A stretch of 27,024 nucleotides of DNA. It comes from a virus. Its lineage: Duplodnaviria > Heunggongvirae > Uroviricota > Caudoviricetes. Shown here piece after piece: positions 5,660 to 18,966 of the stretch. Made by a program: the position numbers and the translations under genes. The stretch lies in the IMG/VR virus record IMGVR_UViG_3300049489_000540; one strand, written 5' to 3'. Positions within the stretch are counted from its first letter, which is position 1; every line of letters starts with the position of its first letter. Below the pieces are notes generated by a model. It was not told the origin of the DNA and did not search any database. It saw nothing but the letters and a program-made list of their open reading frames with translations.

Positions 5660-6448
5660 ATGCGCGTGGTAAGCCTCTTCGACGGTATCGCTTGTGGGCG
5701 TCTTGCTCTCCAGCGGCTCAACATTCCCGTCACCAGCTACAAGGCATCTGAAATCGAAAAGCATGCGATCACGGTTGCTCGTAGCAACTTTCCCGACATT
5801 GAGCATGTCGGTGATGTGACGCAGCTTTATGTCGGTGAAGGTGAATGCGATCTGCTGATGGCTGGCAGCCCATGCCAAGGATTTAGCTGCTCAGGCAAGC
5901 GGCTGAATTTCGAAGATCCTCGCTCCAAGCTCTTCTGGGAATTCGTGCGTATTCTCAAGGAATCCAAGCCTCGCTATTTTTTCCTTGAGAATAATCGGAT
6001 GAAGCCGATCTGGCAAGATATCATCAGTGAAGCCGTTGGCTGCAAGCCGCTGCACATCGACGCTGGCACTATTTCGGCACAGCATCGTGAGCGGCTGTAC
6101 TGGACCAATATTCCTGGTGCTTGTGTTCCCGAGCCGAAGCCGAAGTTTCTGTCGGAAATCATCGGTGAATACGACAAGAAGATTTGGATCTATCCCCGTG
6201 GTCATACCGATAAGGGTGTGTACGATTACGAGGACAAGTGCCCGACCATCACCATTTCGTCATGGGAAGGAAATTTCTTCTACCTTCGCAACGGTGAGAA
6301 GATTCGCTTCACGCCAGAGCAAGCCGAAGAAATTCAAGGTCTGCCCATCGGCTACACCGCAATGGTTCCCAAGACGGTGCGCTTCAAGAAGGTCGGTAAT
6401 GGCTGGTCGATGCCCGTGATTGAGCATCTGTTCAGCGGCTTGAAGTAG
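5660..6448 (+). CDS. DNA (cytosine-5)-methyltransferase
   Basis: Motifs I (SLFDGIACG), IV (GSPCQGFS), VI (ENN), VIII (HRERLYW), X (VGNGWS); leaderless start. Confidence 0.95.
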   Translation: MRVVSLFDGIACGRLALQRLNIPVTSYKASEIEKHAITVARSNFPDIEHVGDVTQLYVGEGECDLLMAGSPCQGFSCSGKRLNFEDPRSKLFWEFVRILKESKPRYFFLENNRMKPIWQDIISEAVGCKPLHIDAGTISAQHRERLYWTNIPGACVPEPKPKFLSEIIGEYDKKIWIYPRGHTDKGVYDYEDKCPTITISSWEGNFFYLRNGEKIRFTPEQAEEIQGLPIGYTAMVPKTVRFKKVGNGWSMPVIEHLFSGLK

Positions 6449-12904: not shown

Positions 12905-13687
12905 ATGCTTGATTTCAAAAATATTATTAAGTACAAAACCTACATCAACCGTATTGGAAACAGAACCATATTCAATGATCAATCCCAAGGTGTCTTGGTC
13001 AAAAACATTATTACATTTTCAGATGATCAACTGATTGACATACAAAAGAGTTGGGACGAAACCGAAAACTTCAACCTGGCAGCAGCAAGTCATAACAAGG
13101 GGCTGCGAGAGCAATCTATCAAGCAAATCGAAGAGTTTTTCAGTGATTTAGGCATGCCGACCTGGGCAAAGAATAATGCTGGAACGGTCATTGGCATGCA
13201 TACCGAATTCAAGACCATGATGAAGCAACTGGACATTATGGGCGGCAATGGTGAATGTCCAAAGCGACCAATGGTTCATTCCGTCTTTTCACTTGGAGAA
13301 CATATCAAGCCGCTTGTCAAGACCTCGACGCTACTCGATTTCGTCAATGAGGTTAGACCACTGATTGCTGAACAAGAACGCAAGAAGCAAGAACTTGAAG
13401 ATGCGAAGATTGCAGATCGACAAGTCATGGCAGCCGCTATTCTGTCGCACAGCAAGGATCGAAACGCGATCGAGAAGTCTCGAAGGGATTGGATCAAAGA
13501 GAATGTTCCAAATGGTAAGATCGTCAAGATTGTCGATTGTAACTATTGCGACGAATGGCGCATTGGCTCATTCAAATGCTCATGTGGTCGAACTTACATG
13601 AACTTCAAAGTGGTCGGAGAACCAGGCAATTGGGAAATCAAAATGTGGGGCGAGCCAGATCCGATTATGAATGTGAAGATCATTTAG
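12905..13687 (+). CDS. hypothetical protein, AT-rich, C-terminal Cys cluster
   Basis: 260 aa; promoter at 12855 and GAGG SD; CNYC...CSCG. Confidence 0.85.
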   Translation: MLDFKNIIKYKTYINRIGNRTIFNDQSQGVLVKNIITFSDDQLIDIQKSWDETENFNLAAASHNKGLREQSIKQIEEFFSDLGMPTWAKNNAGTVIGMHTEFKTMMKQLDIMGGNGECPKRPMVHSVFSLGEHIKPLVKTSTLLDFVNEVRPLIAEQERKKQELEDAKIADRQVMAAAILSHSKDRNAIEKSRRDWIKENVPNGKIVKIVDCNYCDEWRIGSFKCSCGRTYMNFKVVGEPGNWEIKMWGEPDPIMNVKII

Positions 13688-13857
13688 CCTTGCGGCGTTT
13701 GGGCATCGTCTTTCACTTGCTTGGCGGTTACCCATCCTCGGCACCATTCAAGCTGCTCGGTCGTGCCTTTCTTGTAGGGACATGCGATCAATGGCATGCC
13801 CGCTTCACATGCATCAAATCCTTGATCAAAAAATTGTGAGTGTTTAGGGAAAGTCAT
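13684..13857 (-). CDS. ribosome modulation factor (Rmf)/CrpP-fold-like protein (not in ORF track)
   Basis: 57 aa MTFPKHSQFFDQGFDACEAGMPLIACPYKKGTTEQLEWCRGWVTAKQVKDDAQTPQG; G-x-x-A-x-x-x-G-x5-CPY-x(7-9)-W-x-x-GW pattern of Rmf; extended -10 TGaTATAAT-6nt-ATG. Confidence 0.7.
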   Translation of the reverse strand: MTFPKHSQFFDQGFDACEAGMPLIACPYKKGTTEQLEWCRGWVTAKQVKDDAQTPQG

Positions 13858-13873
13858 AGGTCTATTATATCAT

Positions 13874-14359
13874 AAAACGACTGCACCCTGGTCGCAAGCG
13901 CCAGGGTTCTCCTACTAGCATAGGATTAGCCGGGACTGCTAGATCCCGTTCAGAGGCTGAATCGTAAACGATCTGCCTCCTAGTCGTTCGCCCCGCTGGG
14001 TTTAGGTCTTTATGCCGGTCGCCACGGCACAGCGGGACTCATCGGTTTCCACACTCATTCCCCAGCCAAGGGGCGATCTTGCTTCCTCCTGTTTTGGCTT
14101 CTTATACCCTTCACCCGTTTCCCCTATTCTTCATCACCTTCCGGCTGCTAGGCAAGTCCATCGGGTTCAGAGAATTCTGTGGGTACTCGGGGGTGGTTTC
14201 GGCTTGGTGCCACCAAGCCCTCGTCAGTAAGAATCGTGCTGCCGTTTTATGCCCCTGCTGCGGAGCTTCCCTTGCGGGCGGTGGCAGTAACCGTTTTGAT
14301 TTTCAAGAAGCCGATCAGCGACCCAGGATCTCCCTTGTTTGACCGCTTACCAGCTTCGT
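13874..14359 (-). ncRNA. candidate large structured ncRNA (about 485 nt)
   Basis: Own promoter TTGACA(14387)-15-TAAGAT with no ATG at expected start; no minus-strand ORF; many stems with GNRA loops; terminal hairpin 13885-13907 and T-run. Confidence 0.65.
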
Positions 14360-14388
14360 AGGTTTATCTTAGCAGCTTTTTTAGAATG

Positions 14389-14643
14389 TCAAGAGGCTTT
14401 CTTCACCTTCTCGATGCCCAGCAGCTTGCGTTGAGCCGGATTCGGTAACTTGCCCATGAACATGCGCTTGAGTTGTTCTGTGGTCATGAGTGTCGCATCA
14501 GCGAGCCGCCAGATACGACAGTTCGGGCAAGGAATCCTGCGCCATGAACTTGGATGGTTGGCGTATAGCGAGCCAATCTTTTTGCAATCATCAGGATGCC
14601 AGATCACTCCACCACCATCACACCGACTGCATTCTTTGCTCAC
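14389..14643 (-). CDS. hypothetical protein with CxxC pairs (start GTG, VSKECSRC)
   Basis: GTGA overlap; CSRC and CPNC; TGA inside -35 at 14387. Confidence 0.75.
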   Translation of the reverse strand: MSKECSRCDGGGVIWHPDDCKKIGSLYANHPSSWRRIPCPNCRIWRLADATLMTTEQLKRMFMGKLPNPAQRKLLGIEKVKKAS

Positions 14644-14861
14644 GCGGGCACCGCGAAAGCCTTGCTTTCCTTGTAGCTGACCGTGCCGTTGTCGGTGTTG
14701 AAGCTCATCTTGCGGAAGGTCATGCCGTTGCACTTGACCACGGACGGCAGAGCCTTGTACTTGGCGAAGTCCAGATCATGCACTTCCGTCTGGAGCCACA
14801 CGACACCATCGTAGGTGCCGTAGTTGGTGACGGGAATGGCGTCGAGTGCGGTGGCTTGCAT
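14640..14861 (-). CDS. hypothetical protein
   Basis: Leaderless promoter at 14889. Confidence 0.85.
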   Translation of the reverse strand: MQATALDAIPVTNYGTYDGVVWLQTEVHDLDFAKYKALPSVVKCNGMTFRKMSFNTDNGTVSYKESKAFAVPA

Positions 14862-18834: not shown

Positions 18835-18932
18835 AAACAACAAACCCACGGCTTTCACCGTGGGTTTAGGGGATCCGCTAGATCGCTGCCCGGTTTCGCG
18901 CAGTTAAGCACTCGCGGGGCTGTTGCCTTCGT
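18835..18932 (-). ncRNA. candidate small RNA (about 100 nt)
   Basis: Promoter TTGACA(18960)-15-TAGGAT, no ATG, ends in AAACCCACGG-TGAAAG-CCGTGGGTTT terminator (18842-18867). Confidence 0.5.
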
Positions 18933-18966
18933 GTATGTATCCTAACAGCTTCTTGCCAATGTCAAG

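What the first reader, a model, noticed from the sequence alone, without database searches (positions are those of the whole stretch)
13874..14359. Promoter-driven, ORF-free RNA of about 485 nt with a complementary loop pair, directly upstream of an Rmf-like gene
Seen: a standard module (TTGACA 14387-15-TAAGAT) is followed by ACGAAG instead of ATG, then about 485 nt with no minus-strand ORF. Stems on the minus strand include CCC-GCAA-GGG (14269-14278), GGCTTGG..CCAAGCC (14201-14219), AGGGGC/GCCCCT long-range (14251-14256/14068-14073), CCCGCTG/CAGCGGG enclosing GCCG..GCGA..CGGC (13991-14037), GAGGC..GCCTC (13953-13979) and a terminal ACCCTGG/CCAGGGT plus T-run. Two adjacent hairpins (13931-13948 and 13910-13925) have loops containing CUAGCA and UGCUAG, which are exactly complementary. 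Known: large phage-associated ncRNAs (GOLLD, ROOL) and phi29 pRNA use loop-loop contacts to multimerise. Inference: possibly a new large structured phage RNA.
Basis: partly seen in the sequence, partly recalled or inferred. Interest (0 to 1): 0.85.

Follow-up and report, generated by a model that had tools for sequence, protein, structure and literature searches.

The report
New large structured phage RNA gene
An uncultivated freshwater phage and its two known relatives carry a promoter-driven, non-coding RNA of about 390-490 nt whose base pairs are kept by compensating mutations. It matches no catalogued RNA family, and its function is unknown.

Summary
A good copy of the phage's repeated promoter (TTGACA, 15 nt containing TGc, TAAGAT) is followed at the expected start site by ACG instead of ATG. 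The next 486 nt on the minus strand have no ORF longer than 22 codons.

Two related metagenome contigs (L001, L002) carry the same element, 454 and 387 nt long, with the same promoter and the same downstream gene. Indels are mostly not multiples of three. Of 99 proposed pairs, 94.9% of cells are canonical and 23 pairs show compensatory double changes, against 0-4 in slid controls. Column-shuffle z is -6.0. G.U versus A.C counts (29:5) point to the minus strand.

The 3' domain folds in all three into the same five-way junction. Its two adjacent 6-nt loops stay complementary through an A-U to G-C swap in L001. One proposed long-range stem (AGGGGC/GCCCCU) is not supported.

No Rfam family matches any homolog, and no further relatives were found. 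A sediment metatranscriptome holds a 207-nt contig identical to the RNA's 3' half, which is a weak hint of expression.

Best reading: a new family of independently transcribed, structured phage RNA. Whether the loops pair within one molecule or between molecules is open. The scan had not reported this RNA on other DNA.

The parts
14366..14392 (-). Promoter of the RNA: -35 TTGACA (14392-14387, whose TGA is the stop codon of the upstream gene), a 15-nt spacer ending in TGc, and -10 TAAGAT (14371-14366).
   Evidence: It is a member of the module repeated about 45 times in the window. The only exact match is at this site, with 0 expected by chance. It is invariant in L001 and L002 except for three spacer positions.
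13874..14359 (-). The whole RNA, 486 nt, from the predicted +1 A of ACGAAG to the U-run. The homologs are L001:4480-4933(-), 454 nt, and L002:2392-2778(-), 387 nt.
   Evidence: nhmmer gives E of 1e-143 and 7.5e-109 for the homologs and finds no paralog in the window.
14307..14357 (-). Domain 1: the 5' hairpin (RNA nt 3-53). It has a basal helix GAAGC/GCUUC and an apical part that lies in a 28-nt block invariant in all three sequences.
14232..14306 (-). Domain 2 (nt 54-128): an optional three-way junction. The closing helix is CUGCC/GGCAG in the window and CUGUC/GACAG in L001. It holds a GCAA-loop hairpin and a GCUCC-GCAGCA-GGGGC hairpin. L002 lacks the domain.
14089..14231 (-). Domain 3 (nt 129-271): the central multi-helix domain. 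It holds the covarying hairpin at 14201-14219, invariant purine-rich blocks, and a variable apex with 34 extra nt in the window only.
   Evidence: The closing pairs are ambiguous: two alternatives each have one covarying pair.
14045..14088 (-). Domain 4 (nt 272-315): a hairpin CCCC-N6-GGGG. L002 has CUA...UAG at the same place.
13990..14044 (-). Domain 5 (nt 316-370): the invariant CGAUGAG, then the 9-bp helix GUCCCGCUG/CAGCGGGGC with two covarying pairs, which encloses a hairpin with the invariant loop UGGCGAC.
13874..13989 (-). Domain 6 (nt 371-486): a five-way junction. An 8-bp helix (13989-13982 with 13882-13875) closes four hairpins.
   Evidence: All three homologs fold into the same shape, with MFE equal to the centroid. 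z is -5.6, -4.1 and -4.4. Covariance model R1 scores 163-186 bits.
13931..13948 (-). Hairpin with loop 1, CUAGCA (13942-13937).
   Evidence: Five of its six stem pairs show double changes. The loop is CUGGCA in L001.
13910..13925 (-). Hairpin with loop 2, UGCUAG (13920-13915), complementary to loop 1.
   Evidence: One stem pair is compensated in L002. The loop is UGCCAG in L001, which restores six Watson-Crick pairs with loop 1.
13885..13906 (-). Terminal hairpin. Its sequence differs in each homolog, and L001 has a UUCG loop.
13855..13872 (-). The downstream gene's own extended -10 promoter: TGa TATAAT (TATAAT at 13869-13864), then 6 nt, then ATG (13857-13855). There is no Shine-Dalgarno sequence.
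   Evidence: It is invariant in the three homologs and has the same -10-to-ATG distance as the leaderless modules.
13684..13857 (-). Downstream gene: a 57-aa protein of the Rmf/CrpP family, pI 5.6.
   Evidence: NCBIfam NF041886 scores 35.5 bits against a cut-off of 28. Pfam RMF gives E of 1.3e-5, below its cut-off. pI.

Best explanation
This is a gene for a stable, highly structured non-coding RNA of a family not yet catalogued.

**Shown**
- A conserved host-type promoter of the phage's standard design sits in front of it, with a non-AUG at the expected start.
- The RNA consists of six locally closed domains. Domain 2 and the apex of domain 3 are dispensable: whole pieces are missing or replaced in relatives.
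- The 5' hairpin, the purine-rich blocks of domain 3, domain 5 and the 3' five-way junction are kept.
- The helices are maintained by compensatory mutations.
- The two neighbouring 6-nt loops of the 3' junction stay complementary.

**Inferred**
- Transcription starts at A14359.
- The RNA ends at or near the closing helix and U-run at 13874. It is therefore made separately from the next gene, which has its own extended -10 promoter set for a leaderless mRNA.
- The two loops pair.
- The folded RNA acts in trans as a scaffold or particle, with or without protein. The invariant single-stranded blocks and the 5' hairpin would serve as binding surfaces. It does not act by antisense pairing.
For: **Promoter.** It belongs to the repeated module and is conserved in L001 and L002.

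**Structure**
- RNAalifold proposes 94 pairs, 22 of them compensatory.
- With the loop-loop helix added there are 99 pairs. 94.9% of cells are canonical, and 23 pairs carry double changes against 0-4 when partners are slid by 1-3 columns.
- G.U cells number 29 and A.C cells 5.
- Column shuffling gives z of -6.0 on this strand and -4.9 on the other.
- The 3' domain folds identically in all three sequences, with z between -4.1 and -5.6.

**Non-coding.** Indels of 1, 2, 4, 5, 7, 34 and 71 nt occur, and no frame is shared.

**Loops.** The A-U to G-C swap is. The duplex energies are -6.4 and -8.4 kcal/mol, and the chance of such a complementary neighbouring pair is about 0.5%.

**Independence from the next gene.** TGnTATAAT, 6-7 nt and ATG are invariant, and there is no Shine-Dalgarno sequence.

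**Expression hint.** A 207-nt contig in a sediment metatranscriptome is identical to 13883-14089. Nothing from that run lies on the flanking genes within 13600-14700.
Against: - Only three homologs exist, and all come from closely related, syntenic phages. Single covarying pairs, the loop-loop pair included, therefore carry limited weight.
- The consensus structure was derived from the same alignment on which it was scored.
- The 3' end is not mapped. The terminal hairpin is not directly followed by the U-run, so this is not a textbook terminator and read-through into the next gene is possible.
- The RNA-library contig cannot show strand, ends or level, and it could derive from DNA.
- Nothing here identifies a partner or an activity.
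- The central domain is only partly resolved.
Confidence: 0.55

Rival explanations
1. It is a long, structured 5' leader of the Rmf/CrpP-like gene. One transcript from the 14392 promoter would run into the ORF, and the folded leader would control its stability or translation, as was proposed for the Pseudomonas rmf motif.
For: - In all three homologs the RNA lies 16-17 nt upstream of the same ORF on the same strand.
- The terminal hairpin and the U-run are separated by 7 nt, so termination may be weak.
- The AU-rich stretch before the ATG could support initiation without a Shine-Dalgarno sequence; this is an inference.
- A structured RNA upstream of rmf genes has a precedent, and its authors left open whether it is a leader or a separate RNA (PMC2864571).
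Against: - The ORF has an invariant TGnTATAAT exactly 6-7 nt before its ATG, the geometry of the phage's leaderless modules.
- The ORF has no Shine-Dalgarno sequence, whereas leadered genes of this phage have AAGGA-type sites.
- At 390-490 nt, with dispensable domains and a closed 3' junction, the RNA is far larger than known leaders.
- The whole region is syntenic among the three phages, so adjacency alone says little.
Confidence: 0.2
2. The RNA and the neighbouring Rmf/CrpP-like protein form one functional pair. Either the RNA sequesters or is bound by the protein, or both act together on ribosomes.
For: - They are adjacent in 3 of 3 homologs.
- True Rmf binds ribosomal RNA (established knowledge, also stated in PMC2864571).
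Against: - The protein has pI 5.6, with 6 K+R against 7 D+E. E. coli Rmf is strongly basic (own knowledge).
- It matches the broad Rmf/CrpP family of mobile elements rather than the rmf equivalog model.
- No anti-SD-like or other rRNA-like block is conserved in the RNA (seen by inspecting the alignment).
- Adjacency is not independent evidence in syntenic relatives.
Confidence: 0.1
3. The region codes for protein. The candidates are an ORF on the complementary strand, as gene callers annotated in L002, and a leaderless 14-codon frame starting at ACG.
For: - The + strand has ORFs of 60-87 aa in the window, and JGI called a 150-aa ORF in L002.
- The frame from ACG to UGA is 14 codons long in all three homologs (read).
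Against: - The + strand frames are broken between homologs by indels that are not multiples of three.
- The 150-aa product has no relative other than itself among 5.8 billion and 1.84 billion proteins.
- The few stop codons on the + strand follow from the RNA being U-poor.
- In the 14-codon frame the only differences are non-synonymous, and the wobble positions of the 28-nt block are invariant. That fits an RNA-level constraint.
- ACG is not a known leaderless start codon (own knowledge).
Confidence: 0.03
4. It is a spacer or decayed gene remnant without function, and its stems are chance features.
For: - The whole-RNA MFE z-score is modest and similar on both strands: -1.9 and -1.7.
Against: - Compensatory changes, the column-shuffle z of -6.0 and identical independent folds of the 3' domain.
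- A conserved promoter.
- Invariant blocks of up to 28 nt between sequences that differ at 30-40% of aligned positions.
Confidence: 0.03

Closest known systems
ROOL and GOLLD, large ornate RNAs of phages and prophages (PMC12286853)
   Same: Both are large phage-encoded RNAs of unknown function with many helices. In ROOL and GOLLD, complementary loops first read as tertiary contacts turned out to be intermolecular kissing loops. GOLLD likewise has a conserved 3' part and a variable 5' part.
   Different: No covariance-model match, even at E of 10. This RNA is smaller, at 387-486 nt. It is a string of locally closed domains, with only one candidate tertiary contact found. No tRNA gene lies in the window. 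Only three members are known. Oligomerisation has not been tested.
phi29 pRNA (packaging RNA)
   Same: One molecule carries two loops that are complementary to each other. In pRNA they pair between molecules to build a ring (own knowledge). The RNA is made from a phage promoter.
   Different: No Rfam match. This RNA is about three times longer. The loop helix is 6 bp rather than 4. No link to a phi29-type packaging motor was looked for or seen.
rmf motif (Rfam RF01755; PMC2864571)
   Same: A conserved structured RNA upstream of a gene of the Rmf family. It has the same open question of whether it is a leader or a separate RNA.
   Different: No match to that model. The rmf motif is confined to Pseudomonadales. 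Here there is a phage, a separate promoter for each unit, and an acidic Rmf/CrpP-type protein.
Hammerhead ribozyme core / tandem sheared G.A motif
   Same: The junction of domains 5 and 6 reads GAUGAG, helix, CGA. This resembles hammerhead domain II and k-turn-like tandem G.A pairs.
   Different: The hammerhead U4 position is C in all three homologs. The A14 position is G in two of three. No stem I abuts the motif, and no Rfam hammerhead model matches. It is not a hammerhead. The G.A reading is inference only.

Membership tests
Any Rfam 15 family (including GOLLD, ROOL, OLE, HEARO, raiA, pRNA, RNase P, tmRNA, 6S, Y RNA, group I/II introns) | A covariance-model match at or near the gathering score | tested here: not met
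   There is no match at gathering score in the window, L001 or L002. At E up to 10 the hits are unrelated and differ in each homolog, with best E of 0.86-3 and 13-19 bits.
rmf motif (RF01755) | Location in the potential 5' UTR of an rmf-family gene | tested here: met
   The RNA ends 16-17 nt before the ATG of an Rmf/CrpP-family ORF in 3 of 3 homologs.
rmf motif (RF01755) | Sequence and structure match to the family model | tested here: not met
   No hit at E of 10 or better.
phi29-type pRNA | Two loops in one RNA that are complementary to each other | tested here: met
   CUAGCA and UGCUAG, kept complementary by a double change in L001.
phi29-type pRNA | Intermolecular ring formation on a packaging motor; a length of about 120-170 nt; a match to the family model | tested here: not met
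   The length is 387-486 nt and there is no Rfam match. Ring formation cannot be tested with these tools.
Hammerhead ribozyme | The conserved core CUGANGA ... GAAA, with stems I-III abutting it | tested here: not met
   The sequence is C-C/U-C-GAUGA and GA(A/G)C. No hammerhead model matches.
Type III toxin-antitoxin RNA (ToxI-like) | Tandem repeats of a short unit upstream of the protein gene | tested here: not met
   No tandem repeat at a score of 30 or more. Only one 13-nt two-copy direct repeat was found.
Intrinsic terminator at the 3' end | A G+C-rich hairpin directly followed by a U-run | tested here: inconclusive
   The terminal hairpin covaries, but 7 nt separate it from UUUU. The U-run follows, and partly belongs to, the closing helix of the 3' domain. 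The neighbouring short RNA has a canonical terminator for comparison.
This phage's sigma-70-type promoter module | TTGACW, a 15-16-nt spacer with TGn, TAnnnT, and a start 6-7 nt downstream | tested here: met
   It is conserved in relatives.
Rmf/CrpP family (the downstream gene) | NCBIfam NF041886 above its cut-off | tested here: met
   35.5 bits against a cut-off of 28. The rmf equivalog (26.1 against 40) and the phage equivalog (31.4 against 40) fall below their cut-offs.

The most novel reading that the evidence does not exclude
The two complementary loops of the 3' five-way junction pair between molecules. It might work together with the Rmf/CrpP-like protein encoded next to it.
Probability: 0.2. 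Interest if true: 0.85.

Novelty: new variant of a known kind. Interest (0 to 1): 0.6.

Why it matters
Large structured RNAs of several hundred nucleotides are rare. The classes characterised so far have turned out to be ribozymes, ribonucleoprotein scaffolds or self-assembling particles.

This candidate has a defined promoter, a size small enough for in vitro work, dispensable and indispensable domains already marked out by natural variants, and one specific contact that can be tested by mutation and rescue. It comes from a phage lineage that carries other unusual RNA-related features: many leaderless genes, at least one further small RNA and, according to earlier notes, a Ro60-like protein.

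Its weaknesses are the very narrow known distribution and the lack of any functional clue.

Tried and rejected
**Searches for more homologs. All failed beyond L001 and L002.**
- blastn of the RNA (distant mode) and megablast of 25 kb of the window against 50,697 phage records.
- Protein-seeded scans of IMG/VR with the two flanking genes.
- Four exact-pattern scans of IMG/VR with conserved RNA blocks. The pattern fitted only the window's variant of that block.
- Two pattern scans of JGI metagenome contigs. The collection evidently lacks the samples of L001 and L002. The three hits are chance matches.
- One scan of genome contigs. All 12 hits are chance matches in G+C-rich genomes.
- Profile search with the Rmf-like proteins.
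- Searches with the spurious antisense ORF that gene callers annotate over the RNA.
- nhmmer and covariance model R1 over 71 loci of phages that share a cREC_REC gene, about 1.2 Mb in all, and over four whole IMG/VR records.
- A fourth copy probably lies on a Logan contig that carries a protein identical to P0003, but its DNA could not be fetched.

**Other steps that led nowhere**
- Paralogs in the window: none by nhmmer or R1.
- The weak AdoCbl-II riboswitch hit (E 3.3) is absent in the relatives and was rejected.
- The 260-aa convergent ORF as a possible partner has no family. The Atlas gave nothing usable, and the AlphaFold2 model has pLDDT 37, so it was not searched further.
- Read laying: runs X3 and X4 cover only the Rmf/260-aa region, and X5 is an unrelated partial match. 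The parts of the stretch without cover in X2 prove nothing.
- A steric argument that the loops cannot pair within one molecule was considered and dropped. Intramolecular 6-bp kissing between neighbouring hairpins is known elsewhere, for example in enterovirus 3' UTRs (own knowledge).

Full report
**What is in the sequence**

On the minus strand, TTGACA (14392-14387), a 15-nt spacer ending in TGc and TAAGAT (14371-14366) form a good copy of a promoter module. That module (TTGA[CT][AT], 14-17 nt, TAnnnT) occurs about 45 times in the window. In most copies an ATG follows 6-7 nt after the -10 box, so the mRNA has no leader. In this copy ACGAAG stands at that place, starting at 14359.

The next 486 nt, down to the U-run at 13877-13874, hold no start-codon ORF longer than 22 codons on this strand. 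The three ORFs of 60-87 aa on the other strand are expected opposite an RNA with only 17% U.

The next gene (13857-13684) encodes a 57-aa protein of the Rmf/CrpP family. NCBIfam NF041886 scores 35.5 bits against a cut-off of 28, and Pfam RMF falls just below its cut-off. The gene has its own TGaTATAAT, then 6 nt, then ATG, and no Shine-Dalgarno sequence.

**Relatives**

The window has no relative among 50,697 phage records. The convergent 260-aa ORF (12905-13687) has two relatives among 5.8 billion proteins, at 87% and 69% identity. Their contigs, L001 and L002, come from JGI metagenomes and are syntenic with the window at about 75-93% nucleotide identity.

Both carry the element at the same place: L001:4480-4933 (454 nt) and L002:2392-2778 (387 nt). 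Both have the same promoter, the same ACGAAGC start, the same 3' end and the same downstream promoter and gene. The upstream gene differs: L002 has an extra 79-aa gene there. The RNA and its promoter therefore behave as one cassette.

**Non-coding and structured**

The three sequences differ by indels of 1, 2, 4, 5, 7, 34 and 71 nt, and no frame on either strand is shared.

- RNAalifold proposes 94 pairs, 22 of them with compensatory double changes.
- I counted 99 pairs after adding the loop-loop helix. 94.9% of cells are canonical and 23 pairs carry double changes. With the 3' partners slid by 1-3 columns, only 34-47% of cells are canonical and 0-4 pairs carry double changes.
- G.U cells outnumber A.C cells 29 to 5, which points to the minus strand.
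- Against 200 column-shuffled alignments the consensus energy has z of -6.0 (-4.9 for the reverse complement), and no shuffle reaches it.
- The window and L002 differ at 30% of paired and 41% of unpaired aligned positions, so the sequences are diverged enough for this to mean something.

The caveat is that there are only three sequences and the structure was derived from the same alignment.

**Architecture**

1. Domain 1 is a 5' hairpin (nt 3-53). Its apical part lies in a 28-nt invariant block.
2. Domain 2 is a three-way junction of about 75 nt. It is present in the window and L001, where the closing helix covaries. L002 lacks it.
3. Domain 3 is a central multi-helix domain. It has a strongly covarying hairpin (14201-14219), invariant purine-rich strands, and a variable apex with 34 extra nt in the window only.
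4. Domain 4 is a covarying hairpin.
5. Domain 5 has an invariant CGAUGAG, a 9-bp helix and a hairpin with an invariant loop.
6. Domain 6 (13989-13874) is a five-way junction. Each of the three sequences folds on its own into the same shape, with MFE equal to the centroid. z is -5.6, -4.1 and -4.4 on this strand, and -4.6, -1.3 and -3.9 on the other.

The U-run is not a free tail. It pairs with GA(A/G)CGACU to close domain 6.

Seven of the eight stems are confirmed at the stated coordinates, six of them by compensatory changes in relatives. The CCC-GCAA-GGG hairpin exists but lies in the dispensable domain 2. The long-range AGGGGC/GCCCCU pair is not supported. Each arm belongs to a local hairpin, the second of these hairpins covaries, and L002 lacks the first arm.

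**The loop pair**

The hairpins at 13948-13931 and 13925-13910 both have covarying stems. Their 6-nt loops, CUAGCA and UGCUAG, are fully complementary. In L001 they read CUGGCA and UGCCAG, so an A-U pair has become G-C.

The duplexes are worth -6.4 and -8.4 kcal/mol. In random loops of this composition, a 6-nt complement between any two of the eight loops of 6 nt or more arises in about 2% of trials, and between neighbouring loops in about 0.5%. I take the pairing as likely, at about 0.7.

The data cannot tell whether the loops pair within one molecule or between molecules. Intermolecular kissing loops that were first read as tertiary contacts are documented for ROOL and GOLLD (PMC12286853). 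phi29 pRNA uses the same principle (own knowledge).

**Known families**

- Rfam 15 gives nothing at gathering score in the window or in L001 and L002.
- At E up to 10 the hits are weak and different in each homolog.
- The rmf motif of Pseudomonas (RF01755) is a conceptual precedent, being a structured RNA upstream of rmf that may be a leader or a separate RNA (PMC2864571). It does not match.
- The GAUGAG-helix-CGA junction looks like hammerhead domain II but fails the invariant U4 and A14 positions.
- There are no tandem repeats of the ToxI type.

**Expression**

One small sediment metatranscriptome (run X2, from a different study than the likely source sample) contains a 207-nt contig identical to 13883-14089. 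That is RNA nt 271-477, covering domains 4-6. Nothing from that run lies on the flanking genes within 13600-14700. A contig shows neither strand nor ends, and DNA carry-over is possible, so this is a weak hint only.

**Stand-alone RNA or leader?**

For a separate RNA:
- The next gene has an invariant extended -10 at the exact distance used by the leaderless modules.
- That gene lacks a ribosome-binding site.
- Both ends of the RNA are base-paired.

For a leader:
- The adjacency is constant.
- There is no textbook terminator.

I put about 0.65 on a separate RNA, given that the RNA is real. A functional link to the Rmf/CrpP-like protein is possible. However, the protein is acidic (pI 5.6), unlike ribosome-binding Rmf. 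In syntenic relatives, adjacency is not independent evidence either.

**Search for further members**

All further searches failed. The family is known from three contigs, and probably a fourth on Logan whose DNA could not be fetched. All come from freshwater or sediment samples. The scan's own notes contain no earlier report of this RNA on other DNA.

**Verdict**

This is a real, conserved, structured non-coding RNA gene of a family not in Rfam, with one well-defined candidate loop-loop contact. Its function is unknown. The claim of multimerisation remains an analogy that a simple in vitro experiment could test.

Noticed in passing
window 18835-18965 (-); L002 about 5858-6045 (-): A second promoter module (TTGACA, 15 nt, TAGGAT) is also followed by ACGAAG instead of ATG. 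About 100 nt follow, ending in a canonical terminator: a 10-bp stem followed by a U-rich run. Promoter, start and terminator are conserved in L002 (91% column identity). L001 lacks the region. This is probably a small RNA gene, and the shared ACGAAG start of the two RNAs is unexplained.
   Followed up: partly
window 12905-13687 (+): A 260-aa ORF lies on the opposite strand and overlaps the end of the Rmf/CrpP-like gene by 4 nt. Its 5' part is A+T-rich (35-45% G+C) and its C-terminus is Cys-rich. Only two relatives exist among 5.8 billion proteins. It has no Pfam, NCBIfam or PHROG family, and the AlphaFold2 model is unusable (pLDDT 37).
   Followed up: partly
window 13684-13857 (-): The Rmf/CrpP-family protein is acidic (pI 5.6). 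It is expressed from an extended -10 promoter without a recognisable -35 box, unlike the other modules. Ribosome hibernation in the manner of E. coli Rmf is doubtful.
   Followed up: partly
whole window, both strands: About 45 promoter modules occur in 27 kb, most with an ATG 6-7 nt after the -10 box. The -35 TTGA often supplies the stop codon of the preceding gene, as at 14389. Relatives differ by whole cassettes inserted at these junctions, for example the extra 79-aa gene at L002:2808-3047.
   Followed up: partly
L002 2309-2761 (+); window 14079-14342 (+): Gene callers annotate a 150-aa 'hypothetical protein' on the strand opposite the RNA. It has no relatives and is an artefact of the RNA's low U content. 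Such calls hide the RNA gene in annotations.
   Followed up: yes
window 14354-14359 to 14315 (-): From the predicted +1 ACG a 14-codon frame runs to a UGA in all three homologs. The only differences are non-synonymous and the wobble positions of the invariant block do not vary, so it is most likely not translated.
   Followed up: partly
window 14038-14044 and 13987-13990 (-): The junction of domains 5 and 6 reads GAUGAG, helix, CGA, which could form tandem sheared G.A pairs like a k-turn or k-junction. This is inference only.
   Followed up: no
It was not compared.
   Followed up: no
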